Assembly (NCBI GenBank): GCA_009914755.4
Contig: CP068257.2
Coordinates: forward strand, 896,001 to 960,000
Origin: the human T2T-CHM13v2.0 reference genome, Homo sapiens
Direction: 5' to 3'
DNA length: 64,000 nt
Positions 1 through 60,460 of this stretch are shown here, in pieces (position 1 is the first letter of the stretch; each line of letters starts with the position of its first letter). The translations under genes were made by a program, and so were the position numbers. The notes beneath the pieces were generated by a model. That model saw nothing but the letters and a program-made list of their open reading frames with translations. It searched no databases and was not told the DNA's origin.

Positions 1-24
1 ATGTAACCCTTGTCTAGGATCTCC
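1..24. repeat. Tail of the upstream (truncated) HOR copy, landmark phase
   Basis: Bases 1-24 match the 24 bp that precede the landmark in every subsequent HOR copy. Confidence 0.8.
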
Positions 25-1998
25 CTAAATTAACTTTGTGACATAACCCTGTACTGATCATCCAGGTGATGGGGCTTTTGTCTAGGCTCTGCCTAAGGGG
101 GCATTGTGACATATTTCTGCATTGATCACCCAGGTGGCGAACTCTTCTCTTGGATCTGCCTATGGGGGCATTGTGACAAATCTCTGCACTGATCACCCAG
201 GTGATGTAACTGTTGTGTAACCTCTGCCTACAGGGGAATTGTGAGAGATCTCCCCACTGATCACCCAAGTGATGTAACCATTGTCTAGGCTTTGCGTACA
301 GGGGGCTTTGTGACATACCTTTGCACTGATCACCCAGGTGATGTAACACATCTAAGTTCGGCCTAAAGGAGCTTTGTGACATATCTCTGCACTGATCACT
401 TAGGTGATGTAACACTTTTATAAGCACTGCCTACAGGGAATTTTGACAAATCTCTGCACTGATCACCTAGGTGATGTAACGCTTGTCTACCCTCTGTCCA
501 ACGGCGCATTGTGAAATATCACTGCACTGATCACCCAGGTGATTCAACTCTTGACTAGGATCTGCCTACAGAGGTTATTGTGAAATATCTCTGCACTGAT
601 AAACTAGGTGGTGTAACCCTTATCCAAGCTCTGCCTACAGGGGCGTTTTCACATATCCCTGAAGTGATGACAAAGGTGATGTAACTCTTGCCTAGGCTTT
701 GCCTACAGGGGACTTTGGACATATATCTGCACTGATCACCCAGGTGATGCAACTCTTGCCTAGGCTTTGCCTACAGAGGACATTGTGACATATCGCTTCA
801 ATGATCACCCATGTGATGCAACTCTTGCCTAGGCTTTGCCTACAGGGGACATTGTGACATATCTCTGCACTGATCTCCCAGGTGCTGTAACTTTAGTCTA
901 GACTCTGGCTACACGGCATTGTGACATATCACTGCACTGATCAACCAGGTGATATAACTCTTGTCTAGGCTCTGCCTACAGGGGGCTTGTGACATATCTC
1001 TGCACTGATCACCCAGGTGATATAACTCTTCTCTAGGATCTGCCTACCGGGTGCTTTGTGACATATCCCTGCAATGATCACCCAGGTGATCTAACTCTGG
1101 TTTAAGCTCTGCCTAAAGGGGCATTGTGACAGATCTCTGCACTGATCACTCAGGTGATGAAACTATTGTCTAGGCTCTGCTTAAAGGGGCCTTGTCACAT
1201 ATCTCTGCAATGATCACCCAGGTGAAGTAACTCTTGTCTAGCCTCTGCTTTCACGGCATATTGTGACATATCTATGCACTGATCACCTTAGTGATGTAAC
1301 ACTTGTGTAGGCTCGGCCTACAGGGGAATATTGACATATCTCTGCACTGTTAACCGAGGTGATTTAACTCTTGTCTAGGCTGTGCCCACAGGGGGATTGA
1401 GACATATCTCTGCACTGATCCCGAGGTGATCCAACTGTTGCCTGGTCTCTGCCTACTGGGGACATTGTGACATATCTCTGCACTGATCTCCCAGGTGATG
1501 TAACTTTAGTCTAGGCTCTGGCTACACGGCATTGTGACATATCACTGCACTGATCACCCAGGTGATATAAATCTTGTCTAGGCTCTGCCTACAATGACTT
1601 TGTGACATATCTCTGCACTGATGACCCAGGTGATATAACTCTTCTCTAGGATCTGACCACAGGGTGCTTTGTGGCATTTCCCTGCAATGATCACCCAGGT
1701 GATATACCACTTGCCAACGCTCTGCCTACAGGGGCATTGCAATGTATCTCTGCACTGATCACCTAGGTCTTGTAACTCTTTTCTTCGATCTGCCCTCAGG
1801 GTGCTTTTTGACGTATCCCAGCAAGGATTACCCAGGTGATGTACCTCTCATCAAGGCTCTGCCTACAGGCACATTGCGATGTATCTCTGCACTGATCACC
1901 TAGGTCATGTAACTTTTGTCTAGGCTCTGCCTACGATGGCATTGTGGCATATCTCTGCACTAATCATCCAAGTGATGTAACCCTTGTCTAGGATCTGC
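25..1998. repeat. HOR copy 1, 29 monomers, 1974 bp (phase set arbitrarily at the landmark monomer ctaaattaac...)
   Basis: Landmark ctaaattaactttgtgacataaccctgtactgatcatcc at 25, next at 1999. I enumerated 29 distinct monomer types M1-M29 between them. Confidence 0.85.
954..1021. repeat. Representative consensus-like 68-bp monomer (M15 of HOR copy 1): ataactcttgtctaggctctgcctacagggggcttgtgacatatctctgcactgatcacccaggtgat
   Basis: This monomer is close to the majority base at most positions across the 29 monomer types. It contains TGATCA (Sau3AI/BclI) and the dyad ATCACC-CA-GGTGAT at 1006-1021. Confidence 0.8.
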
Positions 1999-15816: not shown

Positions 15817-17791
15817 CTAAATTAACTTTGTGACATAACCCTGTACTGATCATCCAGGTGATGGGGCTTTTGTCTAGGCTCTGCCTAAGGGGGCATTGTG
15901 ACATATTTCTGCATTGATCACCCAGGTGGCGAACTCTTCTCTTGGATCTGCCTATGGGGGCATTGTGACAAAACTCTGCACAGATCACCCAGGTGATGTA
16001 ACTGTTGTGTAACCTCTGCCTACAGGGGAATTGTGAGAGATCTCGCCACTGATCACCCAAGTGATGTAACCATTGTCTAGGCTTTGCGTACAGGGGGCTT
16101 TGTGACATACCTTTGCACTGATCACCCAGGTGATGTAACACATCTATGTTCGGCCTAAAGGAGCTTTGTGACATATCTCTGCACTGATCATTTAGGTGAT
16201 GTAACACTTTTATAAGCACTGCCTACAGGGAATTTTGACAAATCTCTGCACTGATCACCTAGGTGATGTAACGCTTGTCTACCCTCTGTCCAACGGGGCA
16301 TTGTGAAATATCTCTGCACTGATCACCCAGGCGATTCAATTCTTGACTAGGATCTGCCTACAGAGGTTATTGTGAAATATCTCTGCACTGATAAACTAGG
16401 TGGTGTAACCCTTATCCAAGCTCTGCCTACAGGGGCGTTTTCACATATCCCTGAAGTGATGACAAAGGTGATGTAACTGTTGCCTATGCTTTGCCTACAA
16501 GGGGACATTGGACATATATCTGCACTGATCACCCAGGTGATGCAACTCTTGCCTAGGCTTTGCCTACAGGGGACATTGTGACATATCGCTTCAATGATCA
16601 CCCATGTGATGCAACTCTTGCCTAGGCTTTGCCTACAGGGAACATTGTGACATATCTCTGCACTGATCTCCCAGGTGCTGTAACTTTAGTCTAGACTCTG
16701 GCTACACGGCATTGTGACATATCACTGCACTGATCAACCAGGTGATATAACTCTTGTCTAGGCTCTGCCTACAGGGGGCTTGTGACATATCTCTGCACTG
16801 ATCACCCAGGTGATATAACTCTTCTCTAGGATCTGCCTACAGGGTGCTTTGTGACATATCCCTGCAATGATCACCCAGGTGATCTAACTCTGGTTTAAGC
16901 TCTGCCTAAAGGGGCATTGTGACAGATCTCTGCACTGATCACTCAGGTGATGAAACTATTGTCTAGGCTCTGCTTAAAGGGGCCTTGTCACATATCTCTG
17001 CAATGATCACCCAGGTGATGTAACTCTTGTCTAGCCTCTGCTTCCACGGCATATTGTGACATATCTATGCACTGATCACCTTAGTGATGTAACACTTGTG
17101 TAGGCTCGGCCTACAGGGGAATATTGACATATCTCTGCACTGTTAACCGAGGTGATTTAACTCTTGTCTAGGCTGTGCCCACAGGGGGATTGAGACATAT
17201 CTCTGCACTGATCCCGAGGTGATCCAACTGTTCCCTGGTCTCTGCCTACTGGGGACATTGTGACATATCTCTGCACTGATCTCCCAGGTGCTGTAACTTT
17301 AGTCTAGGCTCTGGCTACACGGCATTGCGACATATCACTGCACTGATCACCCAGGTGATATAAATCTTGTCTAGGCTCTGCCTAAAATGGCCTTGTGACA
17401 TATCTCTGCACTGATCACCCAGGTGATATAACTCTTCTCTAGGATCTGACCACAGGGTGCTTTGTGGCATTTCCCTGCAATGATCACCCAGGTGATATAC
17501 CAATTGCCAACGCTCTGCCTACAGGGGCATTGCAATGTATCTCTGCACTGATCACCTAGGTCTTGTAACTCTTTTCTTCGATCTGCCCTCAGGGTGCTTT
17601 TTGACGTATCCCAGCAAGGATTACCCAGGTGATGTACCTCTCATCAAGGCTCTGCCTACAGGCACATTGCGATGTATCTCTGCACTGATCACCTAGGTCA
17701 TGTAACTTTTGTCTAGGCTCTGCCTACGATGGCATTGTGACATATCTCTGCACTAATCATCCAAGTGATGTAAACCTTGTCTACGATCTGC
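15817..17791. repeat. HOR copy 9, 1975 bp (breaks the 3-HOR pattern; distinct variants)
   Basis: Landmark spacing 15817->17792 is 1975. There is a 1-bp insertion and several private substitutions. Confidence 0.8.
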
Positions 17792-19151
17792 CTAAATTAA
17801 CTTTGTGACATAACCCTGTACTGATCATCCAGGTGATGGGGCTTTTGTCTAGGCTCTACCTAAGGGGGCATTGTGACATATTTCTGCATTGATCACCCAG
17901 GTGGCGAACTATTCTCTTGGATCTGCCTATGGGGGCATTGTGACAAATCTCTGCACTGATCACCCAGGTGATGTAACTGTTGTGTAACCTCTGCCTACAG
18001 GGGAATTGTGAGAGATCTCGCCACTGATCACCCAAGTGATGTAACAATTGTCTGGGCTTTGCGTACAGGGGGCTTTGTGACATACCTTTGCACTGATCAC
18101 CCAGGTGATGTAACACATCTATGTTCGGCCTAAAGGAGCTTTGTGACATATCTCTGCACTGATCACCCAGGTGATATAACTCTTCTCTAGGATCTGCCTA
18201 CAGGGTGCTTTGTGACATATCCCTGCAATGATCACCCAGGTGATCTAACTCTGGTTTAAGCTCTGCCTAAAGGGGCATTGTGACAGATCTCTGCACTGAT
18301 CACTCAGGTGATGAAACTATTGTCTAGGCTCTGCTTAACGGGGCCTTGTCACATATCTCTGCAATGATCACCCAGGTGATGTAACTCTTGTCTAGCCTCT
18401 GCTTCCACGGCATATTGTGACATATCATGCACTGATCACCTTAGTGATGTAACACTTGTGTAGGCTCGGCCTACAGGGGAATATTGACATATCTCTGCAC
18501 TGTTAACTGAGGTGATTTAACTCTTGTCTAGGCTGTGCCCACAGGGGGATTGAGACATATCTCTGCACTGATCCCGAGGTGATCCAACTGTTGCCTGGTC
18601 TCTGCCTACTGGTGACATTGTGACATATCTCTGCACTGATCTCCCAGGTGCTGTAACTTTAGTCTAGGCTTTGGCTACACGGCATTGTGACATATCACTG
18701 CACTGATCACCCAGGTGATATAAATCTTGTCTAGGCTCTGCCTAAAATGGCCTTGTGACATATCTCTGCACTGATCACCCAGGTGATATAACTCTTCTCT
18801 AGGATCTGACCGCAGGGTGCTTTGTGGCATTTCCCTGCAATGATCACCCAGGTGATATACCACTTGCCAACGCTCTGCCTACAGGGGCATTGCAATGTAT
18901 CTCTGCACTGATCACCTAGGTCTTGTAACTCTTTTCTTCGATCTGCCTTCAGGGTGCTTTTTGACGTATCCCAGCAAGGATTACCCAGGTGATGTACCTC
19001 TCATCAAGGGTCTGCCTACAGGCACATTGCCATGTATCTCTGCACTGATCACCTAGGTCATGTAACTTTTGTCTAGGCTCTGCCTACGATGGCATTGTGA
19101 CATATCTCTGCACTAATCATCCAAGTGATGTAAACCTTGTCTACGATCTGC
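17792..19151. repeat. HOR copy 10, 1360 bp: 20-monomer copy carrying a 9-monomer (~614 bp) deletion (M7-M15 lost)
   Basis: Landmark spacing is 1360. At about 18140-18180 monomer M6 (..ggagctttgtgacatatctctgcactgatcac) runs directly into M16 (ccaggtgatataactcttctctaggatctgcctacagggtgc). Separately, there is a 2-bp loss at about 18421. Confidence 0.85.
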
Positions 19152-42565: not shown

Positions 42566-44470
42566 CTAAATTAACTTTGTGACGTAACCCTGTACTGATC
42601 ATCCAGGTGATGGGGCTTTTGTCCAGGCTCTGCCTAAGGGGGCATTGTGACATATTTCTGCATTGATAACCCAGGTGGCGAACTCTTCTCTTGGATCTGC
42701 CTATGGGGGCATTGTGACAAATCTCTGCACTGATCACCCAGGTGATGTAACTGTTGTGTAACCTCTGCCTACAGGGGAATTGTGAGAGATCTCGCCACTG
42801 ATCACCCAAGTGATGTAACCATTGTCTAGGCTTTGCGTACAGGGGGCTTTGTGACATACCTTTGCACTGATCACCCAGGTGATGTAACACATCTATGTTC
42901 GACCTAAAGGAGCTTTGTGACATATCTCTGCACTGATCACTTAGGTGATGTAACACTTTTATAAACACTGCCTACAGGGAATTTTGACAAATCTCTGCAC
43001 TGATAACCTAGGTGATGTAACGCTTGTCTACCCTCTGTCCAACGGGGCATTGTGAAATATCTCTGCACTGATCACCCAGGTGATTCAACTCTTGACTAGG
43101 ATCTGCCTACAGAGGTTATTGTGAAATATCTCTGCACTGATAAACTAGGTGGTGTAACACTTATCCAAGCTCTGCCTACAGGGGCGTTTTCACATATCCC
43201 TGAAGTGATGACAAAGGTGATGTAACTCTTGCCTAGGCTTTGCCTACAGGGGACATTGGATATATATCTGCACTGATCACCCAGGTGATGCAACTCTTGC
43301 CTAGGCTTTGCCTACAGGGGACATTGTGACATATCTGTGCACTGATCTCCCAGGTGCTGTAACTTTAGTCTAGACTCTGGCTACACGGCATTGTGACATA
43401 TCACTGCACTGATCAACCAGGTGATATAACCCTTGTCTAGGCTCTGCCTACAGGGGGCTTGTGACATAGCTCTGCACTGATCACCCAGGTGATATAACTC
43501 TTCTCTAGGATCTGCCTACAGGGTGCTTTGTGACATATCCCTGCAATGATCACCCAGGTGATCTAACTCTGGTTTAAGCTCTGCCTAAAGGGGCATTGTG
43601 ACAGATCTCTGCACTGATCACTCAGGTGATGTAACTATTGTCTAGGCTCTGCTTAAAGGGGCCTTGTCACATATCTCTGCAATGATCACCCAGGTGATGT
43701 AACTCTTGTCTAGCCTCTGCTTTCACGGCATATTGTGACATATCTATGCACTGATCACCTTAGTGATGTAACACTTGTGCAGGCTCGGCCTACAGGGTAA
43801 TATTGACATATCCCTGCACTGTTAACCGAGGTGATTTAACTCTTGTCTAGGCTGTGCCCACAGGGGGATTGAGACATATCTCTGCACTGATCCCGAGGTG
43901 ATGCAACTGTTGCCTGGTCTCTGCCTACTGGGGACATTGTGAAATATCTCTGCACTGATCTCCCAGGTGCTGTAACTTTAGTCTAGGCTCTGGCTACACG
44001 GCATTGTGACATATCACTGCACTGATCACCCAGGTGATATAAATCTTGTCTAGGCTCTGCCTACAATGGCCTTGTGACATATCTCTGCACTGATCACCCA
44101 GGTGATATAACTCTTCTCTAGGATCTGACCACAGGGTGCTTTGTGACATTTCCCTGCAATGATCACTCAGGTGATATACCACTTGCCAAGGCTCTGCCTA
44201 CAGGGGCATTGCAATGTATCTCTGCACTGATCACCTAGGTCTTGTAACTCTTTTCTTTGATCTGCTCTCAGGGTGCTTTTTGACGTATCCCAGCAAGGAT
44301 TACCCAGGTGATGTACCTCTCATCAAGGCTCTGCCTACAGGCACATTGCGATGTATCTCTGCACTGATCACCTAGGTCATGTAACTTTTGTCTAGGCTCT
44401 GCCTACGATTGCATTGTGACATATCTCTGCACTAATCATCCAAGTGATGTAACCCTTGTCTAGGATCTGC
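42566..44470. repeat. HOR copy 23, 1905 bp: 28-monomer variant (type C' with M12 lost)
   Basis: Landmark spacing is 1905. The tatcgcttcaatgat monomer is missing at about 43290-43340. Confidence 0.85.
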
Positions 44471-46444
44471 CTAAATTAACTTTGTGACGTAACCCTGTAC
44501 TGATCATCCAGGTGATGGGGCTTTTGTCCAGGCTCTGCCTAAGGGGGCATTGTGACATATTTCTGCATTGATAACCCAGGTGGCGAACTCTTCTCTTGGA
44601 TCTGCCTATGGGGGCATTGTGACAAATCTCTGCACTGATCACCCAGGTGATGTAACTGTTGTGTAACCTCTGCCTACAGGGGAATTGTGAGAGATCTCGC
44701 CACTGATCACCCAAGTGATGTAACCATTGTCTACGCTTTGTGTACAGGGGGCTTTGTGACATACCTTTGCACTGATCACCCAGGTGATGTAACACATCTA
44801 TGTTCGACCTAAAGGAGCTTTGTGACATATCTCTGCACTGATCACTTAGGTGATGTAACACTTTTATAAACACTGCCTACAGGGAATTTTGACAAATCTC
44901 TGCACTGATAACCTAGGTGATGTAACGCTTGTCTACCCTCTGTCCAACGGGGCATTGTGAAATATCTCTGCACTGATCACCCAGGTGATTCAACTCTTGA
45001 CTAGGATCTGCCTACAGAGGTTATTGTGAAATATCTCTGCACTGATAAACTAGGTGGTGTAACACTTATCCAAGCTCTGCCTACAGGGGCGTTTTCACAT
45101 ATCCCTGAAGTGATGACAAAGGTGATGTAACTCTTGCCTAGGCTTTGCCTACAGAGGACATTGGATATATATCTGCACTGATCACCCAGGTGATGCAACT
45201 CTTGCCTTGGCTTTTCCTACAGGGGACATTGTGACATATCGCTTCAATGATCACCCATGTGATGCAACTCTTGCCTAGGCTTTGCCTACAGGGGACATTG
45301 TGACATATCTCTGCACTGATCTCCTAGGTGCTGTAACTTTAGTCTAGACTCTGGCTACACGGCATTGTGACATATCACTGCACTGATCAACCAAGTGATA
45401 TAACTCTTGTCTAGGCTCTGCCTACAGGGGGCTTGTGACATAGCTCAGCACTGATCACCCAGGTGATATAACTCTTCTCTAGGATCTGCCTACAGGGTGC
45501 TTTGTGACATATCCCTGCAATGATCACCCAGGTGATCTAACTCTGGTTTAAGCTCTGCCTAAAGGGGCATTGTGACAGATCTCTGCACTGATCACTCAGG
45601 TGATGTAACTATTGTCTAGGCTCTGCTTAAAGGGGCCTTGTCACATATCTCTGCAATGATCACCCAGGTGATGTAACTGTTGTCTAGCCTCTGCTTTCAC
45701 GGCATATTGTGACATATCTATGCACTGATCACCTTAGTGATGTAACACTTGTGCAGGCTCGGCCTACAGGGTAATATTGACATATCTCTGCACTGTTAAC
45801 CGAGGTGATTTAACTCTTGTCTAGGCTGTGCCCACAGGGGGATTGAGACATATCTCTGCACTGATCCCGAGGTGATCCAACTGTTGCCTGGTCTCTGCCT
45901 ACTGGGGACATTGTGACATATCTCTGCACTGATCTCCCAGGTGCTGTAACTTTAGTCTAGGCTCTGGCTACACGGCATTGTGACATATCACTGCACTGAT
46001 CACCCAGGTGATATAAATCTTGTCTAGGCTCTGCCTACAATGGCCTTGTGACATATCTCTGCACTGATCACCCAGGTGATATAACTCTTCTCTAGGATCT
46101 GACCACAGGGTGCTTTGTGACATTTCCCTGCAATGATCACCCAGGTGATATACCACTCGCCAAGGCTCTGCCTACAGGGGCATTGCAATGTATCTCTGCA
46201 CTGATCACCTAGGTCTTGTAACTCTTTTCTTTGATCTGCCCTCAGGGTGCTTTTTGACGTATCCCAGCAAGGATTACCCAGGTGATGTACCTCTCATCAA
46301 GGCTCTGCCTACAGGCACATTGCGATGTATCTCTGCACTGATCACCTAGGTCATGTAACTTTTGTCTAGGCTCTGCCTAGGATTGCATTGTGACATATCT
46401 CTGCACTAATCATCCAAGTGATGTAACACTTGTCTAGGATCTGC
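44471..46444. repeat. HOR copy 24, 1974 bp (type C'-like)
   Basis: Landmark spacing is 1974. Confidence 0.85.
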
Positions 46445-49030
46445 CTAAATCAACTTTGTGACATAACCCTGTACTGATCATCCAGGTGATGGGGCTTTTG
46501 TCTAGGCTCTGCCTAAGGGGGCATTGTGACATATTTCTGTATTGATCACCCAGGTGGCGAACTCTTCTCTTGGATCTGCCTATGGGGGCATTGTGACAAA
46601 TCTCTGCACTGATCACCCAGGTGATGTAACTCTTGTGTAACCTCTGCCTACAGGGGAATTGTGAGAGATCTCGCCACTGATCACCCAAGTGATGTAACCA
46701 TTGTCTAGGTTTTGCGTACAGGGGGCTTTTTGACATACCTTTGCACTGATCACCCAGGTGATGTAACACATCTAAGTTCGGACTAAAGGAGCTTTGTGAC
46801 ATATCTCTGCACTGATCACTTAGGTGATGTAACACTTTTATAAGCACTGCCTACAGGGAATTTTGAAAAATCTCTGCACTGATCACCTAGGTGATGTAAC
46901 GCTTGTCTACCCTCTGTCCAACGGGGCATTGTGAAATATCTCTGCACTGATCACCCAGGTGATTCAACTCTTGACTAGGATCTGCCTACAGAGGTTATTG
47001 TGAAATATCTCTGCACTGATAACTAGGTGGTGTAACACTTATCCAAGCTCTGCCTACAGGGGCGTTTTCACATATCCCTGAAGTGATGACAAAGGTGATG
47101 TAACTCTTGCCTAGGCTTTGCCTACAGGGGACATTGGATATATATCTGCACTGATCACCCAGGTGATGCAACTCTTGCCTAGGATTTTCCTACAGGGGAC
47201 ATGGTGACATATCGCTTCAATGATCACCCATGTGATGCAACTCTTGCCTAGGCTTTGCCTACAGGGGACATTGTGACATATCTCTGCACTGATCTCCCAG
47301 GTGCTGTAACTTTAGTCTAGACTCTGGCTACACGGCATTGTGACATATCACTGCACTGATCAACCAGGTGATATAACTCTTGTCTAGGCTCTGCCTACAG
47401 GGGGCTTGTGACATAGCTCAGCACTGATCACCCAGATGATATAACTCTTCTCTAGGATCTGCCTACAGGGTGCTTTGTGACATATCCCTGCAATGATCAC
47501 CCAGGTGATCTAACTCTGGTTTAAGCTCTGCCTAAAGGGGCATTGTGACAGATCTCTGCACTGATCACTCAGGTGATGTAACTATTGTCTAGGCTCTGCT
47601 TAAAGGGGCCTTGTCACATATCTCTGCACTGATCACCCAGGTGATGTAACTCTTGTCTAGCCTCTGCTTTCACGGCATATTGTGACATATCTATGCACTG
47701 ATCACCTTAGTGATGTAACAATTGTGTAGGCTCGGCCTACAGGGGAATATTGACATATCTCTGCACTGTTAACCAAGGTGATTTAACTCTTGTCTAGGCT
47801 GTGCCCACAGGGGGATTGAGACATATCTCTGCACTGATCCCGAGGTGATCCAAATGTTGCCTGGTCTCTGCCTACTGGGGACATTGTGACATATCTCTGC
47901 ACTTATCTCCCAGGTGCTGTAACTTTAGTCTAGGCTCTGGCTCCACGGCATTGTGACATATCACTGCACTGATCACCCAGGTGATATAACCCTTGTCTAG
48001 GCTCTGCCTACAGGGGGCTTGTGACATAGCTCTGCACTGATCACCCAGGTGATATAACTCTTCTCTAGGATCTGCCTACAGGGTGCTTTGTGACATATCC
48101 CTGCAATGATCACCCAGGTGATCTAACTCTGGTTTAAGCTCTGCCTAAAGGGGCATTGTGACAGATCTCTGCACTGATCACTCAGGTGATGTAACTATTG
48201 TCTAGGCTCTGCTTAAAGGGGCCTTGTCACATATCTCTGCAACGATCACCCAGGTGATGTAACTCTTGTCTAGCCTCTGCTTTCACGGCATATTGTGACA
48301 TATCTATGCACTGATCACCTTAGTGATGTAACACTTGTGCAGGCTCGGCCTACAGGGTAATATTGACATATCTCTGCACTGTTAACCGAGGTGATTTAAC
48401 TCTTGTCTAGGCTGTGCCCACAGGGGGATTGAGACATATCTCTGCACTGATCCCGAGGTGATGCAACTGTTGCCTGGTCTCTGCCTACTGGGGACATTGT
48501 GAAATATCTCTGCACTGATCTCCCAGGTGCTGTAACTTTAGTCTAGGCTCTGGCTACACGGCATTGTGACATATCACTGCACTGATCACCCAGGTGATAT
48601 AAATCTTGTCTAGGCTCTGCCTACAATGGCCTTGTGACATATCTCTGCACTGATCACCCAGGTGATATAACTCTTCTCTAGGATCTGACCACAGGGTGCT
48701 TTGTGACATTTCCCTGCAATGATCACTCAGGTGATATACCACTTGCCAAGGCTCTGCCTACAGGGGCATTGCAATGTATCTCTGCACTGATCACCTAGGT
48801 CTTGTAACTCTTTTCTTTGATCTGCCCTCAGGGTGCTTTTTGACGTATCCCAGCAAGGATTACCCAGGTGATGTACCTCTCATCAAAGCTCTGCCTACAG
48901 GCACATTGCGATGTATCTCTGCACTGATCACCTAGGTCATGTAACTTTTGTCTAGGCTCTGCCTACGATTGCATTGTGACATATCTCTGCACTAATCATC
49001 CAAGTGATGTAACCCTTGTCTAGGATCTGC
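46445..49030. repeat. HOR copy 25, 2586 bp: 38-monomer copy carrying a tandem duplication of 9 monomers (M15-M23, 614 bp)
   Basis: Landmark spacing 46445->49031 is 1974+612. Segment 47371-47984 is repeated as 47985-48598. At the junction M23 (..ctggctccacggcattgtgacatatcactgcactgatcacccaggtgatataa) is followed by M15 (cccttgtctaggctctgcctacagggggcttgtgacatagctct) instead of M24. There is also a 1-bp loss at about 46990. Confidence 0.85.
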
Positions 49031-51004
49031 CTAAATTAACTTTGTGACGTAACCCTGTACTGATCATCCAAGTGATGGGGCTTTTGTCCAGGCTCTTCCT
49101 AAGGGGGCATTGTGACATATTTCTGCATTGATAACCCAGGTGGCGAACTCTTCTCTTGGATCTGCCTATGGGGGCATTGTGACAAATCTCTGCACTGATC
49201 ACCCAGGTGATGTAACTGTTGTGTAACCTCTGCCTACAGGGGAATTGTGAGAGATCTCGCCACTGATCACCCAAGTGATGTAACCATTGTCTAGGCTTTG
49301 CGTACAGGGGGCTTTGTGACATACCTTTGCACTGATCACCCAGGTGATGTAACACATCTATGTTCGACCTAAAGGAGCTTTGTGACATATCTCTGCACTG
49401 ATCACTTAGGTGATGTAACACTTTTATAAACACTGCCTACAGGGAATTTTGACAAATCTCTGCACTGATCACCTAGGTGATGTAACGCTTGTCTACCCTC
49501 TGTCCAACGGGGCATTGTGAAATATCTCTGCACTGATCACCCAGGTGATTCAACTCTTGACTAGGATCTGCCTACAGAGGTTATTGTGAAATATCTCTGC
49601 ACTGATAAACTAGGTGGTGTAACACTTATCCAAGCTCTGCCTACATGGGCGTTTTCACATATCCCTGAAGTGATGACAAAGGTGATGTAACTCCTGCCTA
49701 GGCTTTGCCTATAGGGGACATTGGATATATATCTGCACTGATCACCCAGGTGATGCAACTCTTGCCTAGGCTTTTCCTACAGGGGACATTGTGACATATC
49801 GCTTCAATGATCACCCATGTGATGCAACTCTTGCCTAGGCTTTGCCTACAGGGGACATTGTGACATATCTCTGCACTGATCTCCTAGGTGCTGTAACTTT
49901 AGTCTAGACTCTGGCTACACGGCATTGTGACATATCACTGCACTGATCAACCAGGTGATATAACTCTTGTCTAGGCTCTGCCTACAGGGGGCTTGTGACA
50001 TAGCTCAGCACTGATCACCCAGGTGATATAACTCTTCTCTAGGATCTGCCTACAGGGTGCTTTGTGACATATCCCTGCAATGATCACCGAGGTGATCTAA
50101 CTCTGGTTTAAGCTCTGCCTAAAGGGGCATTGTGACAGATCTCTGCACTGATCACTCAGGTGATGTAACTATTGTCTAGGCTCTGCTTAAAGGGGCCTTG
50201 TCACATATCTCTGCAATGATCACCCAGGTGATGTAACTCTTGTCTAGCCTCTGCTTTCACGGCATATTGTGACATATCTATGCACTGATCACCTTAGTGA
50301 TGTAACACTTGTGCAGGCTCGGCCTACAGGGTAATATTGACATATCTCTGCACTGTTAACCGAGGTGATTTAACTCTTGTCTAGGCTGTGCCCACAGGGG
50401 GATTGAGACATATCTCTGCACTGATCCCGAGGTGATCCAACTGTTGCCTGGTCTCTGCCTACTGGGGACATTGTGACATATCTCTGCACTGATCTCCCAG
50501 GTGCTGTAACTTTAGTCTAGGCTCTGGCTACACGGCATTGTGACATATCACTGCACTGATCACCCAGGTGATATAAATCTTGTCTAGGCTCTGCCTACAA
50601 TGGCCTTGTGACATATCTCTGCACTGATCACCCAGGTGATATAACTCTTCTCTAGGATCTGACCACAGGGTGCTTTGTGACATTTCCCTGCAATGATCAC
50701 CCAGGTGATATACCACTTGCCAAGACTCTGCCTACAGGGGCATTGCAATGTATCTCTGCACTGATCACCTAGGTCTTGTAACTCTTTTCTTTGATCTGCC
50801 CTCAGGGTGCTTTTTGACGTATCCCAGCAAGGATTACCCAGGTGATGTACCTCTCATCAAGGCTCTGCCTACAGGCACATTGCGATGTATCTCTGCACTG
50901 ATCACCTAGGTCATGTAACTTTTGTCTAGGCTCTGCCTACGATTGCATTGTGACATATCTCTGCACTAATCATCCAAGTGATGTAACACTTGTCTAGGAT
51001 CTGC
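49031..51004. repeat. HOR copy 26, 1974 bp (type C'-like)
   Basis: Landmark spacing is 1974. Confidence 0.85.
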
Positions 51005-52906
51005 CTAAATTAACTTTGTGACATAACCCTGTACTGATCATCCAGGTGATGGGGCTTTTGTCTAGGCTCCTAAGGGGGCATTGTGACATATTTCTGCATT
51101 GATCACCCAGGTGGCGAACTCTTCTCTTGGATCTGCCTATGGGGGCATTGTGACAAATCTCTGCACTGATCACCCAGGTGATATAACTCTTGTGTAAACT
51201 CTGCCTACAGGGGAATTGTGAAAGATCTCGCCACTGATCACCCAAGTGATGTAACCATTGTCTAGGCTTTGCGTACAGGGGGCTTTGTGACATACCTTTG
51301 CACTGATCACCCAGGTGATGTAACACATCTAAGTTCGGACTAAAGGAGCTTTGTGACATATCTCTGCACTGATCACTTAGGTGATGTAACACTTTTATAA
51401 GCACTGCCTACAGGGAATTTTGAAAAATCTCTGCACTGATCACCTAGGTGATGTAACGCTTGTCTACCCTCTGTCCAACGGCGAATTGTGAAATATCTCT
51501 GCACTGATCACCCAGGTGATTCAACTCTTGACTAGGATCTGCCTACAGAGGTTATTGTGAAATATCTCTGCACTGATAAACTAGGTGGTGTAACACTTAT
51601 CCAAGCTATGCCTATAGGGGCGTTTTCACATATCCCTGAAGTGATAACAAAGGTGATGTAACTCTTGCCTAGGCTTTGCCTACAGGGGACATTGGATATA
51701 TATCTGCACTGATCACCCAGGTGATGCAACTCTTGCCTAGGATTTTCCTACAGGGGACATTGTGACATATCTCTGCACTGATCTCCCAGGTGCTGTAACT
51801 TTAGTCTAGACTCTGGCTACACGGCATTGTGACATATCACTGCACTGATCAACCAGGTGATATAACTCTTGTCTAGGCTCTGCCTACAGGGGGCTTGTGA
51901 CATAGCTCAGCACTGATCACCCAGATGATATAACTCTTCTCTAGGATCTGCCTACAGGGTGCTTTGTGACATATCCCTGCAATGATCACCCAGGTGATCT
52001 AACTCTGGTTTAAGCTCTGCCTAAAGGGGCATTGTGACAGATCTCTGCACTGATCACTCAGGTGATGTAACTATTGTCTAGGCTCTGCTTAAAGGGGCCT
52101 TGTCACATATCTCTGCACTGATCACCCAGGTGATGTAACTCTTGTCTAGCCTCTGCTTTCACGGCATATTGTGACATATCTATGCACTGATCACCTTAGT
52201 GATGTAACAATTGTGTAGGCTCGGCCTACAGGGGAATATTGACATATCTCTGCACTGTTAACCGAGGTGATTTAACTCTTGTCTAGGCTGTGCCCACAGG
52301 GGGATTGAGACATATCTCTGCACTGATCCCGAGGTGATCCAAATGTTGCCTGGTCTCTGCCTACTGGGGACATTGTGACATATCTCTGCACTGATCTCCC
52401 AGGTGCTGTAACTTTAGTCTAGGCTCTGGCTACATGGCATTGTGACATATCACTGCACTGATCACCCAGGTGATATAAATCTTGTCTAGGCTCTGCCTAC
52501 AATGGCCTTGTGACATATCTCTGCACTGATCACCCAGGTGATATAACTCTTCTCTAGGATCTGACCACAGGGTGCTTTGTGGCATTTCCCTGCAATGATC
52601 ACCCAGGTGATATACCACTTGCCAAGACTCTGCCTACAGGGGCATTGCAATGTATCTCTGCACTGATCACCTAGGTCTTGTAACTCTTTTCTTTGATCTG
52701 CCCTCAGGGTGCTTTTTGACGTATCCCAGCAAGGATTACCCAGGTGATGTACCTCTCATCAAGGCTCTGCCTACAGGCACATTGCGATGTATCTCTGCAC
52801 TGATCACCTAGGTCATGTAACTTTTGTCTAGGCTCTGCCTACGATTGCATTGTGACATATCTCTGCACTAATCATCCAAGTGATGTAACACTTGTCTAGG
52901 ATCTGC
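51005..52906. repeat. HOR copy 27, 1902 bp: 28-monomer variant (M12 lost) plus two 3-bp microdeletions
   Basis: Landmark spacing is 1902. There is a 3-bp loss at about 51066 (tctaggctcctaaggggg). A second 3-bp loss is inferred from a missing codon in the 136-aa pseudo-ORF; I did not locate it in the sequence. Around 51730-51790 the tatcgcttcaatgat monomer is absent. Confidence 0.85.
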
Positions 52907-54880
52907 CTAAATTAACTTTGTGACATAACCCTGTACTGATCATCCAGGTGATGGGGCTTTTGTCTAGGCTCTGCCTAAGGGGGCATTGTGACATATTTCT
53001 GCATTGATCACCCAGGTGGCGAACTCTTCTCTTGGATCTGCCTATGGGGGCATTGTGACAAATCTCTGCACTGATCACCCAGGTGATGTAACTCTTGTGT
53101 AAACTCTGCCTACAGGGGAATTGTGAGAGATCTCGCCACTGATCACCCAAGTGATGTAACCATTGTCTAGGCTTTGCGTACAGGGGGCTTTGTGACATAC
53201 CTTTGCACTGATCACCCAGGTGATGTAACACATCTAAGTTCGGACTAAAGGAGCTTTGTGACATATCTCTGCACTGATCACTTAGGTGATGTAACACTTT
53301 TATAAGCACTGCCTACAGGGAATTTTGACAAATCTCTGCACTGATCACCTAGGTGATGTAACGCTTGTCTACCCTCTGTCCAACGGCGCATTGTGAAATA
53401 TCTCTGCACTGATCACCCAGGTGATTCAACTCTTGACTAGGATCTGCCTACAGAGGTTATTGTGAAATATCTCTGCACTGATAAACTAGGTGGTGTAACA
53501 CTTATCCAAGCTCTGCCTATAGGGGCGTTTTCACATATCCCTGAAGTGATAACAAAGGTGATGTAACTCTTGCCTAGGCTTTGCCTACAGGGGACATTGG
53601 ATATATATCTGCACTGATCACCCAGGTGATGCAACTCTTGCCTAGGATTTTCCTACAGGGGACATTGTGACATATCGCTTCAATGATCACCCATGTGATG
53701 CAACCCTTGCCTAGGCTTTGCCTACAGGGGACATTGTGACATATCTCTGCACTGATCTCCCAGGTGCTGTAACTTTAGTCTAGACTCTGGCTACACGGCA
53801 TTGTGACATATCACTGCACTGATCAACCAGGTGATATAACCCTTGTATAGGCTCTGCCTACAGGGGGCTTGTGACATAGCTCTGCACTGATCACCCAGGT
53901 GATATAACTCTTCTCTAGGATCTGCCTACAGGGTGCTTTGTGACATATCCCTGCAATGATCACCCAGGTGATCTAACTCTGGTTTAAGCTCTGCCTAAAG
54001 GGGCACTGTGACAGATCTCTGCACAGATCACTCAGGTGATGTAACTATTGTCTAGGCTCTGCTTAAAGGGGCCTTGTCACATATCTCTGCAATGATCACC
54101 CAGGAGATGTAACTCTTGTCTAGCCTCTGCTTCCGCGGCATATTGTGACATATCTATGCACTGATCACCTTAGTGATGTAACACTTGTGTAGGCTCGGCC
54201 TACAGGGGAATATTGACATATCTCTGCACTGTTAACCGAGGTGATTTAACTCTTGTCTAGGCTGTGCCCACAGGGGGATTGAGACATATCTCTCCACTGA
54301 TCCCGAGGTGATGCAACTGTTGCCTGGTCTCTGCCTACTGGGGACATTGTGACATATCTCTGCACTGATCTCCCAGGTGCTGTAAATTTAGTCCAGGCTC
54401 TGGCTACACGGCATTGTGACATATCACTGCACTGATCACCCAGGTGATATAAATCTTGTCTAGGCTCTGCCTACAATGGCCTTGTGACATATCTCTGCAC
54501 TGATCACCCAGGTGATATAACTCTTCTCTAGGATCTGACCACAGGGTGCTTTGTGGCATTTCCCTGCAATGATCACCCAGGTGATATACCACTCGCCAAG
54601 GCTCTGCCTACAGGGGCATTGCAATTTATCTCTGCACTGTTCACCTAGGTCTTGTAACTCTTTTCTTCGATGTGCCCTCAGGGTGATTTTTGACGTATCC
54701 CAGCAAGGATTACCCAGGTGATGTACCTCTCATCAAGGCTCTGCCTACAAGCACATTGCGATGTATCTCTGCACTGATCACCTAGGTCATGTAACTTTTG
54801 TCTAGGCTCTGCCTACGATGGCATTGTGACATATCTCTGCACTAATCATCCAAGTGATGTAACACTTGTCTAGGATCTGC
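52907..54880. repeat. HOR copy 28, 1974 bp (3' half partly resembles the variant block of copies 18/20/21)
   Basis: Landmark spacing is 1974. At 54101-54400 it carries ccaggagatgtaac, cttccgcggc and gtaaatttagtccagg. Confidence 0.85.
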
Positions 54881-56785: not shown

Positions 56786-58690
56786 CTAAATTAACTTTGT
56801 GACATAACCCTGTACTGATCATCCAGGTGATGGGGCTTTTGTCTAGGCTCTGCCTAAGGGGGCATTTTGACATATTTCTGCATTGATCACCCAGGTGGCG
56901 AACTCTTCTCTTGGATCTGCGTATGGGGGCATTGTGACAAATCTCTGCACTGATCACCCAGGTGATGTAACTGTTGTGTAACCTCTGCCTACAGGGGAAT
57001 TGTGAGAGATCTCGCCACTGATCACCCAAGTGATGTAACCATTGTCTAGGCTTTGCGTACAGGGGTCTTTGTGACATACCTTTGCACTGATCACCCAGGT
57101 GATGTAACACATCTATGTTCGGCCTAAAGGAGCTTTGTGACATACCTCTGCACTGATCACTTAGGTGATGTAACAGTTTTATAAGCACTGCCTACAGGGA
57201 ATTTTGACAAATCTCTGCACTGATCACCTAGGTGATGTAACGCTTGTGTACCCTCTGTCCAACGGGGCATTGTGAAATATCTCTGCACTGATCACCCAGG
57301 TGATTCAACTCTTGACTAGGATCTGCCTACAGAGGTTATTGTGAAATATCTCTGCACTGATAAACTAGGTGGTGTAACCCTTATCCAAGCTCTGCCTATA
57401 GGGGCGTTTTCACATATCCCTGAAGTGATGACAAAGATGATGTAACTCTTGCCTAGACTTTGCCTACAGGGGACATTGGACATATATCTGCACTGATCAC
57501 CCAGGTGATGCAACTCTTGCCTAGGCTTTGCCTACAGGGGACATTGTGACATATCTCTGCACTGATCTCCCAGGTGCTGTAACATTAGTCTAGACTCTGG
57601 CTACACGGCATTGTGACATATCACTGCACTGATCAACCAGGTGATATAACTCTTGTCTAGGCTCTGCCTACAGGGGTCTTGTGACATAGCTCTGCACTGA
57701 TCACCCAGGTGATATAACTCTTCTCTAGGATCTGCCTACAGGGTGCTTTGTGACATATCCCTGCAATGATCACCCAGGTGATCTAACTCTGGTTTAAGCT
57801 CTGCCTAAAGGGGCATTGTGACAGATCTCTGCACTGATCACTCAGGTGATGTAACTATTGTCTAGGCTCTGCTTAAAGGGGCCTTGTCACATATCTCTGC
57901 AATGATCACCCAGGTGATGTAACTCTTGTCTAGCCTCTGCTTTCACGGCATATAGTGACATATCTATGCACTGATCACCTTAGTGATGTAACACTTGTGT
58001 AGGCTCGGCCTACAGGGGAATATTGACATATCTCTGCACTGTTAACCGAGGTGATTTAACTCTTGTCTAGGCTGTGCCCACAGGGGGATTGAGACATATC
58101 TCTGCACTGATCCCGAGGTGATCCAACTGTTGCCTGGTCTCTGCCTACTGGGGACATTGTGACATATCTCTGCACTGATCTCCCAGGTGCTGTAACTTTA
58201 GTCTAGGCTCTGGCTACACGGCATTGTGACATATCACTGCACTGATCACCCAGGTGATATAAATCTTGTCTAGGCTCTGCCTACAATGGCCTTGTGACAT
58301 ATCTCTGCACTGATCACCCAGGTGATATAACTCTTCTCTAGGATCTGACCACAGGGTGCTTTGTGACATTTCCCTGCAATGATCACCCAGGTGATATACC
58401 ACTTGCCAAGGCTCTGCCTACAGGGGCATTGCAATGTATCTCTGCACTGATCACCTAGGTCTTGTAACTCTTTTCTAGGATCTGCCCACAGGGTGATTTT
58501 TGACGTATCCCAGCAAGGATTACCCAGGTGATGTACCTCTCATCAAGGCTCTGCCTACAGGCACATTGCGATGTATCTCTGCACTGATCACCTGGGTCAT
58601 GTAACTTTTGTCTAGGCTCTGCCTACGATGGCATTGTGACATATCTCTGCACTAATCATCCAAGTGATGTAAACAATGTCTAGGATCTGC
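56786..58690. repeat. HOR copy 30, 1905 bp: 28-monomer variant (M12 lost)
   Basis: Landmark spacing is 1905. Around 57480-57570 M11 is followed directly by M13. Confidence 0.85.
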
Positions 58691-60460
58691 CTAAATTAAC
58701 TTTGTGACATAATCCTGTACTGATCATCCAGGTGATGGGGCTTTTGTCTAGGCTCTGCCTAAGGGTGCATTGTGACATATTTCTGCATTGATCACCCAGG
58801 TGGCGAACTCTTCTCTTGGATCTGCCTATGGGGGCATTGTGAGAAATCTCTGCACTGATCACCCAGGTGATGTAACTGTTGTGTAACCTCTGCCTACAGG
58901 GGAATTGTGAGAGATCTCTCCACTGATCACCCAAGTGATGTTACCATTGTCTAGGCTTTGCGTACAGGGGGCTTTGTGACATACCTTTGCACTGATCACC
59001 CAGGTGATGTAACATATCTAAGTTCGGCCTAAAGGAGCTTTGTGACATATCTCTGCACTGATCACTTAGGTGATGTAACACTTTTATAAGCACTGCCTAC
59101 AGGGAATTTTGACAAATCTCTGCACTCATCACCTAGGTGATGTAACGCTTGTCTACCCTCTGTCCAACGGGGCATTGTGAAATATCTCTGCACTGATCAC
59201 CCTGGTGATTCAACTCTTGACTAGTATCTGCCTACAGAGGTTATTGTGAAATATCTCTGCATTGATAAACTAGGTGTTGTAACCCTTGTCCAAGCTCTGC
59301 CTATAGGGACGTTTTCACATATCCCTGAAGTGATGACAAAGGTGATGTAACTCTTGCCTAGGCTTTTCCTACAGGGGACATTGTGACATATCGCTTCAAT
59401 GATCACCCATGTGATGCAACTCTTGCCTAGGCTTTGCCTACAGGGGACATTGTGACATATCTCTCCACTGATCTCCCATGTGCTGTAACTTTAGTCTAGG
59501 CTCTGGCTACATGGCACTGTGACATATCACTGCACTGATCAACCAGGTGATATAACACTTCTATAGGCTCTGCCTACAGGGGGCTTGTGACATACCTCTG
59601 CACTGATCACACAGGTGATATAACTCCTCTCTAGGATCTACCTACTGGGTGCTTGGTGACATATCCCTGCACTGATCACCCAGGTGATCTAACTCTCGTC
59701 TGAGCTCTGCCTAAAGGGCATTGTGACAGATCTCTGCACTGATCACCCAGGTGATGTAACTCTTGTCTAGGCTCTCCTTGCAGGGCATATTGTGACATAT
59801 CTATGCACTGATCACCTTAGTGATGTAACACTTGTGTATGCTCGGCCTACAGGGAAATCTTGACATATCTCTGCACTGTTAACCGAGGTGATTTAACTCT
59901 TGCCTAGGCTGTGCCCACAGGGGGATTGAGACATATCTCCGCACTGATCCCGAGGTGATCCAACTCTTGCCTGGTCTCTGCCTACTGGGGACATTGTGAC
60001 ATATCTCTGCACTGATCAACCAGGTGATATAACTCTTGTCTAGGCTCTGCCTACAATGGTCTTGTGACATACCTCTGCACTGACCACCCAGGTGATATAA
60101 CTCTTCTCTAGGATCTGACCACAGGGTGCTTTGTGACATATCCCTGCAATGATCACCCAGGTGATATACCACTTGCCAAGGTTCTGCCTACTGGGGCATT
60201 GCAATGTATCTCTGCACTAATCACCTTGGTCTTGTAAATCTTTTCTAGAATCTGCCCACAGGGTGCTTTGTGACGTATCCCAGCAAGGATTACCCAGGTG
60301 ATGTACCTCTCATCAAGGCTCTGCCTACAGGCACATTGCGATGTATCTCTGCACTGATCATATAGGTCATGTAACTTTTGTCTAGGCTCTGCCTACGATA
60401 GCATTGTGACATATGTCTGCACTAATCATCCAAGTGATGTAACACTTGTCTAGGATCTGC
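58691..60460. repeat. HOR copy 31, 1770 bp: 26-monomer divergent variant (three separate single-monomer fusions: M11/M12, M17/M18, M22/M23)
   Basis: Landmark spacing is 1770 (1974 minus 3x68). There are three fusion junctions. About 59340-59410 is an M11/M12 hybrid. About 59690-59760 has M17 followed by M19. About 59940-60060 has an M22 ending in gatcaaccaggtgat followed by M24. Point substitutions are visibly denser than in copies 1-30. Confidence 0.8.

What the first reader, a model, noticed from the sequence alone, without database searches (positions are those of the whole stretch)
47371..48598. Reciprocal-type event: 9-monomer (614 bp) tandem duplication in HOR copy 25 via M14/M23 paralog exchange
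Copy 25 is 2586 bp, which is 1974 + 612. Block 47371-47984 (M15..M23) is immediately repeated at 47985-48598. At the junction, M23 is followed by M15 where M24 would normally come. This is what a crossover between the near-identical M14 and M23 predicts. Together with copy 10, the window shows both a loss and a gain of 9 monomers. The two events have different breakpoints, so they are independent.
Basis: seen in the sequence. Interest (0 to 1): 0.5.

Follow-up and report, generated by a model that had tools for sequence, protein, structure and literature searches.

The report
Nine-monomer gain in a satellite repeat
One unit of a long, almost certainly human, beta-satellite repeat array carries an extra 613-bp block of nine 68-bp monomers, made by misaligned recombination between two near-identical monomers, which is a real but ordinary way for satellite DNA to change.

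Summary
The window is pure 68-bp satellite arranged as a 29-monomer, 1974-bp higher-order repeat (HOR). Copy 25 (46421-49006, 2586 bp) has 38 monomers in the order M1-M23, M15-M23, M24-M29. The repeated blocks are 613 bp each, not 614: 47371-47983 and 47984-48596. They are 97.7% identical with no indels. No other 613-bp window exceeds 77% identity at that offset.

M14 and M23 differ at only two fixed positions. The junction maps to a 13-bp interval, 47977-47989, at the M23|M15 boundary.

New result: the two blocks are not each other's closest relatives. Ten of their 14 differences are variants shared with other HOR copies. Block a matches copy 27; block b plus M24-M29 matches copies 19, 22 and 23. 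Copy 25 is therefore a chimera of two pre-existing repeat haplotypes. This fits unequal exchange, or out-of-register break repair, and argues against in-situ slippage.

The event may have been a 4.56-kb staggered duplication (2 HORs + 9 monomers, 99.1% identity). That is tentative.

Copy 10 is an independent 9-monomer loss with an M6/M15 hybrid monomer.

The mechanism is the textbook one for HOR length variants, so interest is low.

The parts
46421..49006 (+). HOR copy 25, the only 38-monomer variant in the window (M1-M23, M15-M23, M24-M29; 2586 bp)
   Evidence: Monomer typing
47371..47983 (+). Block a: first M15-M23 set (613 bp). Its haplotype is closest to copy 27.
47984..48596 (+). Block b: second M15-M23 set (613 bp). 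It is 97.7% identical to block a, and its haplotype is closest to copies 19 and 23.
47304..47370 (+). M14 of copy 25, the paralogue of M23. It has A at both diagnostic columns, 18 and 61.
47917..47983 (+). Junction monomer M23a. It is M23-type at both diagnostic columns (G at col 18; C at col 61 = position 47976). It carries one private change, at column 28.
47977..47989 (+). Breakpoint interval, CCAGGTGATATAA (13 bp). It lies between the last M23-specific base (47976) and the first M15-specific base (47990).
47235..47507 (+). Paralogous patch M13-M16, the left-hand partner. It is about 93% identical to M22-M25 at a 613-bp offset.
48461..48733 (+). Paralogous patch M22b-M25, the right-hand partner
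43424..47983 (+). Candidate larger duplicated segment S1 (copy 23 M15 to copy 25 M23a; 67 monomers). Tentative.
47984..52472 (+). Candidate larger duplicated segment S2 (copy 25 M15b to copy 27 M23; 66 monomers). It is 99.1% identical to S1 apart from one missing M12. Tentative.
17768..19127 (+). HOR copy 10, a 20-monomer variant (M1-M6, M16-M29). This is the independent 9-monomer loss. The M6/M15 hybrid monomer is at 18108-18173.

Best explanation
The window is a 68-bp beta-satellite array, almost certainly human and of the acrocentric short-arm type, with a 29-monomer (1974-bp) HOR. Inside the HOR, monomers M13-M16 and M22-M25 form a paralogous patch 613 bp (9 monomers) apart. Its core is M14/M23, which is about 97% identical.

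Two HOR copies of different haplotype paired 9 monomers out of register on this patch. One resembled copy 27 and the other resembled copies 19, 22 and 23. They may also have been offset by two whole HORs. A homologous exchange resolved in the 13 bp CCAGGTG|ATATAA at the M23/M14-M15 boundary. It could have been an unequal crossover between sister chromatids, homologues or heterologous acrocentrics, or a non-reciprocal out-of-register break repair.

The recombinant reads through M23 of the left parent and continues with M15 of the right parent. The result is a 38-monomer HOR copy with M15-M23 present twice.

Shown directly: the structure, the breakpoint interval and the two-parent chimerism. Inferred: the type of recombination, the partner molecules and the offset in whole HORs.
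For: - Structure and identity.
- M14 and M23 differ only at columns 18 and 61 in about 30 copies. The junction monomer is G/C (M23-type) and the next monomer is M15-type from column 7. This confines the join to 47977-47989, with no added or lost bases.
- Only 4 of the 14 a/b differences are private. Five rare alleles of block a recur in copy 27 (some also in copies 2, 5, 8, 17). Five rare alleles of block b recur in copies 19, 22 and 23.
- Block a is 4 differences from copy 27 but 14 from block b. Block b is 2 differences from copies 19 and 23. M24-M29 is 1 difference from copies 22 and 23.
- A copying-model path switches donor from copy 27 (1 mismatch over about 9.6 monomers) to copy 23 (5 mismatches over about 16 monomers) between M22a column 43 and the junction. 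The background rate of such switches gives about 0.05 expected in an interval of that size.
- Among offsets of n HORs + 9 monomers, n = 2 gives the best identity across the junction, 99.1%, and both ends fit best at n = 2.
- The 9-monomer register recurs. Copy 10 is a 9-monomer loss with a clean M6/M15 hybrid monomer.
- Satellite identity: 68-bp period with GATC in 800 of 941 monomers. A 1906-bp, 28-monomer beta-satellite HOR is reported on CHM13 chr22 and chr15 short arms (PMC10760446), matching the 28-monomer variants of 1902-1906 bp here. The exact 137-aa ORF product of canonical copies occurs in ENA metagenome assemblies, one of them labelled human gut, on contigs of about 2029 bp = 1974 + 55.
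Against: - The junction monomer shows no hybrid signature. The exchange lies in the shortest identity island of the patch (13 bp, against 57 and 41 bp on its left), so use of M14/M23 homology is inferred from position only.
- The n = 2 staggered-duplication version fits imperfectly. Copy 27 lacks M12 while copy 25 has it. Copy 25 M1-M13 is only about 98% identical to copy 27 and is closer to copy 28. Copies 24 and 26 differ at 15 sites, the same as copies 23 and 24, and share no exclusive rare alleles.
- The reciprocal junction, M14(A) followed by M24, is absent from the window. It is not expected on the same molecule.
- Crossover cannot be told apart from gene conversion, SDSA or BIR.
- Human origin was not tested against a reference genome.
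Confidence: 0.8

Rival explanations
1. In-situ tandem duplication of M15-M23 within one HOR copy, by replication slippage or template switching on the M14/M23 repeat. The blocks then diverged to 97.7% identity.
For: The head-to-tail arrangement and the in-register junction at a direct repeat would look the same.
Against: Ten of the 14 differences are not new mutations. They are alleles shared with other HOR copies, and they split cleanly into a copy-27 set in block a and a copy-19/22/23 set in block b. Each block has closer relatives elsewhere (4 and 2 differences) than its own twin (14 differences). Rescuing this model needs a later conversion that replaced almost a whole block.
Confidence: 0.08
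2. Non-reciprocal repair rather than crossover. A break in a copy-27-like repeat was repaired by out-of-register strand invasion (SDSA or BIR) into a copy-23-like repeat 9 monomers away. This added 613 bp without a reciprocal product.
For: It predicts the same chimeric structure and the same breakpoint. No reciprocal 20-monomer copy with an M14/M24 junction exists in the window. The patchy ancestry of M1-M13 of copy 25 suggests short-tract conversion is common here.
Against: Nothing in the sequence separates it from crossover. The best fit at n = 2 across 4.5 kb is what a true staggered crossover predicts, and less so a short repair tract.
Confidence: 0.3
3. Assembly artefact: a false 613-bp insertion created by mis-joining reads in a repetitive array.
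For: Satellite arrays are error-prone. Read support could not be checked here.
Against: The two blocks are distinguishable at 14 sites and the junction is unique in the window. An overlap shifted by 9 monomers would be only about 77% identical outside the patch, so an assembler would not join reads that way (inference). The flanks continue in perfect HOR register.
Confidence: 0.04
4. The M23-to-M15 adjacency was imported from a second HOR subtype in which the M24 and M25 slots are M15- and M16-like. That subtype has the order '22 23 15 16 26', as in window copies 31 and 33 and many metagenome contigs. The exchange then used M15/M16 homology rather than M14/M23.
For: That subtype exists. In it the paralogous patch is nearly identical over four monomers, making it a better substrate.
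Against: Block a and the left flank resemble copy 27, a normal subtype. M15b is identical to M15 of copies 19 and 23 from column 8 onward, so the breakpoint interval changes by only 1 bp. This is a variant of the main explanation, not an alternative outcome.
Confidence: 0.1

Closest known systems
Alpha-satellite HOR length variants made by homologous unequal crossing-over, for example the chromosome 17 D17Z1 deletion polymorphism (Waye & Willard 1986, Nucleic Acids Res 14:6915; seen here only in the reference list of PMC9859433; details from my own knowledge)
   Same: A whole number of monomers is gained or lost. The junction is in register between two related monomers of the same HOR. Variant units sit inside an otherwise regular array.
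   Different: The satellite family is different: 68-bp beta rather than 171-bp alpha. This is a gain of 9 monomers seen once, not a fixed or polymorphic variant class. The parental haplotypes can be read from neighbouring copies.
Human beta satellite (Sau3A family) HOR arrays on acrocentric short arms: pB4-type, and the 1906-bp 28-monomer HOR on CHM13 chr22 and chr15 (PMC8125562; PMC10760446)
   Same: 68-bp monomers, a GATC site in most monomers, about 77% identity between monomers, and a 28-monomer variant of 1902-1906 bp present in this window.
   Different: The window's main unit is 29 monomers (1974 bp). I found no description of the 38-monomer copy. No direct alignment to a reference beta-satellite sequence or chromosome was possible.
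Non-allelic homologous recombination between intrachromosomal paralogues, as in low-copy-repeat duplication and deletion pairs (general knowledge)
   Same: Direct repeats in tandem orientation give reciprocal gain and loss of the interval. The breakpoint lies within an identity tract.
   Different: The scale is tiny: a homology patch of 113-270 bp and an interval of 613 bp. It sits inside a satellite where every register has some homology.

Membership tests
Human beta satellite (Sau3A family) HOR array | Tandem monomers of about 68 bp | tested here: met
   TRF gives period 68 across 1-64000. There are 941 monomers of 65-69 bp.
Human beta satellite (Sau3A family) HOR array | Sau3A (GATC) site in the monomer | tested here: met
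   GATC is in the consensus and in 800 of 941 monomers.
Human beta satellite (Sau3A family) HOR array | Diverged monomers arranged in a homogeneous multimeric HOR | tested here: met
   Monomer types average 77% identity. Some adjacent HOR copies reach 99.5% identity at lag 1974.
Human beta satellite (Sau3A family) HOR array | Sequence match to a reference beta-satellite consensus, and location on a human acrocentric short arm | not testable with these tools
   No eukaryotic reference was available. Indirect support: the exact ORF product occurs in a human gut metagenome assembly, and a 1906-bp 28-monomer beta-satellite HOR is reported on CHM13 chr22 and chr15. My recollection of the consensus agrees, but that is not a test.
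HOR variant made by homologous unequal exchange | Length change equal to a whole number of monomers, with monomer order otherwise kept | tested here: met
   +9 monomers, 613 bp; order 1..23, 15..23, 24..29.
HOR variant made by homologous unequal exchange | Junction in register inside a tract shared by two non-allelic monomers, with no filler or loss | tested here: met
   The join lies within CCAGGTGATATAA (47977-47989), at the 3' edge of the 2-mismatch M14/M23 pair.
HOR variant made by homologous unequal exchange | Sequence on the two sides of the junction derives from two different parental repeat units | tested here: met
   Shared-allele analysis and the copying model give copy-27-like sequence on the left and copy-23-like on the right. 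The background expectation for a switch in that interval is about 0.05.
HOR variant made by homologous unequal exchange | Existence of the reciprocal product (a 20-monomer copy with an M14/M24 junction) | tested here: inconclusive
   It is absent from the window and from bacterial/archaeal genome contigs. It would lie on another chromatid or lineage, so absence says little.
In-situ slippage duplication | The two copies are each other's nearest relatives and differ only by private mutations | tested here: not met
   Ten of 14 differences are shared with other copies. The nearest relatives are copy 27 and copies 19/23, not the twin block.

The most novel reading that the evidence does not exclude
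The four-monomer paralogous patch M13-M16/M22-M25 may act as a recurrent hotspot that fixes a preferred +/-9-monomer misalignment register in acrocentric beta-satellite arrays. In that case 38- and 20-monomer units would arise repeatedly. Their junction haplotypes could serve as markers for tracing sister, homologous and heterologous acrocentric exchanges across human pangenome assemblies.
Probability: 0.25. Interest if true: 0.35.

Novelty: new member of a known kind. Interest (0 to 1): 0.15.

Why it matters
This is a clean, base-resolved example of how satellite HOR arrays gain and lose monomers. It shows a 13-bp breakpoint interval and two parental haplotypes that can still be identified in the same array. 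It also shows a paralogous patch inside the HOR that sets the 9-monomer register.

It adds nothing conceptually new. Unequal exchange has been the accepted mechanism for such variants since the 1970s and 1980s. Its practical value would be as a marker variant for following recombination in acrocentric short-arm beta satellite across assemblies.

Tried and rejected
- A fuzzy-regex anchor for monomer segmentation gave erratic hits. I replaced it with a wrap-around dynamic-programming alignment.
- A literature search for the monomer sequence as text found nothing. Waye & Willard 1989 (PMC297815) is not held. A search on HOR size terms found nothing relevant.
- The junction probe hit 3 contigs in metagenome contigs, but it is not specific outside the window. 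Many human-associated contigs have the order '23 15 16 26' as their normal arrangement. The one duplication-like contig, L001, could be a short-read path chimera through the shared M15-M16. I therefore do not count it as independent confirmation of the 38-monomer copy.
- The genome-contig scans for the junction and for the predicted reciprocal junction both found nothing.
- The 51-aa ORF spanning the junction is not on record. Another 137-aa ORF variant is not on record either.
- Rfam gave no hits over 44000-53000. The recurrent 137-aa minus-strand ORF has no Pfam hit on record. I treat it as a by-product of the repeat.
- Doubleton sharing gave no exclusive support for copies 24 and 26 being duplicates. 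The 4.56-kb model therefore stays tentative.
- A search for the longest exact tract at each register showed 41 bp for the 9-monomer shift, against 33 bp or less for the others. Private variants shorten the 57-bp consensus tract in individual copies.

Full report
**What the window is**

Tandem Repeats Finder reports one array of 68-bp units across all 64,000 bases. Base composition is flat at 47% GC. Autocorrelation shows a dominant higher-order period of 1974 bp and a secondary peak at 613 bp.

I aligned the window to the cyclic 68-bp consensus. This gave 941 monomers of 65-69 bp, plus one truncated final monomer. In monomer units the period is 29, with a weaker signal at 28. Typing every monomer against the 29 positions gives 33 HOR copies:
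- 29-monomer copies of 1974 bp, which are the most common;
- 28-monomer copies of 1902-1906 bp;
- one 20-monomer copy (copy 10);
- one 38-monomer copy (copy 25);
- two aberrant copies at the right end, a 26-monomer copy and a 25-monomer copy cut off by the end of the window.

The 68-bp unit, the GATC site in 800 of 941 monomers and the multimeric HOR are the defining features of beta satellite (Sau3A family) as reviewed in PMC8125562 and in the T2T centromere preprint. A 1906-bp, 28-monomer beta-satellite HOR is reported in tandem on CHM13 chr22 and chr15 short arms (PMC10760446). That matches the 28-monomer variant seen here.

The exact product of a 137-aa ORF that recurs in canonical copies is on record in 124 blocks of the public collection. 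The records read include a human gut metagenome assembly. Several of these contigs are 2029 bp, which equals 1974 + 55. I read that length as the HOR collapsed by a short-read assembler, an inference from the length alone. I therefore take the array to be human beta satellite. No reference alignment was possible, so this identification is inferred.

**Checking the observation**

Copy 25 spans 46421-49006 (2586 bp) and reads M1-M23, M15-M23, M24-M29. The repeated blocks are 613 bp each, 47371-47983 and 47984-48596. They share 599 of 613 bases with no internal indel.

Over 613-bp windows, identity at offset 613 reaches 97.7% only here. The next best anywhere is 77%. Different monomer types average 77% identity.

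**The junction**

Across the array, M14 and M23 differ at only two columns. Column 18 is A in M14 and G in M23. Column 61 is A in M14 and C in M23. Essentially all copies keep these states.

The monomer before the junction (47917-47983) has G and C, so it is M23 through position 47976. The next monomer is M15-type from its seventh base (47990), where M24 would have A. The join therefore lies in the 13 bp CCAGGTGATATAA (47977-47989), with no inserted or lost bases. An 82-nt probe for this junction is unique in the window.

The homology is broader than one monomer. At a 9-monomer offset only M13/M22, M14/M23, M15/M24 and M16/M25 are similar, with 6, 2, 6 and 4 differences. All other pairs at that offset show 10-25 differences. 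This patch gives about 270 bp at roughly 93% identity, with a core of about 113 bp carrying two mismatches. The 9-monomer register, counted in either direction round the HOR, also holds the longest exact tract of any non-allelic register within single copies.

**Origin of the two blocks**

If the block had been copied in place, the 14 differences should be private mutations. Only four are. Five rare alleles of block a recur in copy 27, and some also in copies 2, 5, 8 and 17. Five rare alleles of block b recur in copies 19, 22 and 23.

Block a is 4 differences from copy 27. Block b is 2 differences from copies 19 and 23. The two blocks differ from each other by 14. The M24-M29 tail is 1 difference from copies 22 and 23.

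A copying-model path through copy 25 uses copy 27 from M13 to M22a with one mismatch. It then uses copy 23 from M22a column 43 to M29 with five mismatches. The same model applied to 20 other copies gives about one switch per copy. That is about 0.05 expected in an interval the size of the one holding the junction.

Copy 25 is thus a chimera of two pre-existing HOR haplotypes joined at the M23|M15 boundary. This is what unequal exchange predicts and what in-place slippage does not.

**Was the event larger?**

If the two parents were copies of the same array, the exchange would have duplicated everything between them. I compared the sequence left and right of the junction for offsets of n HORs + 9 monomers. 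The best fit is n = 2: 43424-47983 against 47984-52472, at 99.1% identity. The first 15 monomers differ at 3 sites and the last 9 at 4 sites. For n = 0 the identity is 97.7%, and for n = 1 it is 98.4%.

The fit is imperfect:
- Copy 27 lacks M12 while copy 25 has it.
- M1-M13 of copy 25 is closer to copy 28 than to copy 27.
- Copies 24 and 26 differ at 15 sites and share no exclusive rare alleles.

I regard the 4.56-kb staggered duplication as plausible, roughly even odds, but not established.

**The loss in copy 10**

Copy 10 (17768-19127) reads M1-M6, M16-M29. The monomer at 18108-18173 is M6 in its 5' part and M15 in its 3' end, with CC in place of TT at columns 62-63. The exchange therefore fell in a 26-bp identical stretch.

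It uses the same 9-monomer register. That could be chance, about 1 in 28, or could reflect pairing guided by the paralogous patch. This last point is speculation.

**Related sequences elsewhere**

The junction probe hit three ENA metagenome contigs.
- Two of them (L002, L003) show the order '22 23 15 16 26'. Most of the roughly 2-kb contigs that carry the canonical ORF show the same order. In that HOR subtype the M24 and M25 slots are M15- and M16-like. It is the same subtype as window copies 31 and 33.
- The third, L001, runs from 945 bp of CpG-rich, non-satellite DNA (72% GC over its first 500 bp) through diverged monomers into 'M17-M23, M15-M23'. This order could be a short-read assembly path through the shared M15-M16.

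None of these is secure independent evidence for the 38-monomer copy. The predicted reciprocal junction, M14(A) followed by M24, is absent from the window and from bacterial genome contigs.

**Other checks**

There are no Rfam matches in 44000-53000. Only one ORF of at least 60 aa overlaps 47300-48700. The ORF across the junction is not on record.

**Verdict**

The finding is correct, and its interpretation is supported and sharpened. The phenomenon is a whole-monomer HOR length variant made by homologous exchange between paralogous monomers. This is the classical mechanism described for alpha satellite (Waye & Willard 1986, listed among the references of PMC9859433). It is a new instance of a known kind and of low general interest.

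Noticed in passing
window 19128-62341 (copies 11, 13, 19, 22, 23, 27, 29, 30, 32): There are two kinds of 28-monomer HOR. One lacks M12 (order '11 13'); the other lacks M11 (order '10 12'). M11, M12 and M13 are close paralogues, 4-8 differences apart. These look like one-monomer unequal exchanges with different breakpoints. The 1905/1906-bp unit matches the 28-monomer beta-satellite HOR reported on CHM13 chr22 and chr15 (PMC10760446).
   Followed up: partly
window 58667-60436 and 62342-64000 (copies 31 and 33): A divergent HOR subtype: '...12 13 14* 15 16 17 19 20 21 22 15' 16 26 27' 28 29'. It lacks M11, M18 and M23. Its M14 is G/A at the diagnostic columns, and its M24 and M25 slots are M15- and M16-like. 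The two copies share 45 exclusive variants. The same '15 16 26 27' motif dominates human-associated metagenome contigs.
   Followed up: partly
window 1-17767 (copies 1-9): The first nine copies show a three-HOR super-period. Copies 1/4/7, 2/5/8 and 3/6(/9) share exclusive variants, consistent with amplification of a 5.9-kb triplet. Copies 18/21 and 13/14 are also near-duplicates.
   Followed up: no
window 24366-24500 (copy 13, M23 slot): The M23 slot of copy 13 has G at column 61, where M23 has C and M14 has A. The monomer was typed as M14-like. This is a private variant in the paralogous patch.
   Followed up: no
L001 1-945 (OGUR01004451.1): This metagenome contig joins beta-satellite monomers to 945 bp of CpG-rich, non-satellite DNA (72% GC over the first 500 bp, 45 CpG). 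It may be an LSau/D4Z4-type element at an array edge. L002 instead abuts AT-rich sequence (35-40% GC).
   Followed up: no
window, minus strand, M1-M6 of most copies (e.g. 5936-6349): A 137-aa ORF recurs in nearly every HOR copy, and gene callers have called it in many metagenome assemblies. It has no Pfam hit on record. It is most likely a by-product of the repeat, and a source of spurious proteins in databases.
   Followed up: partly
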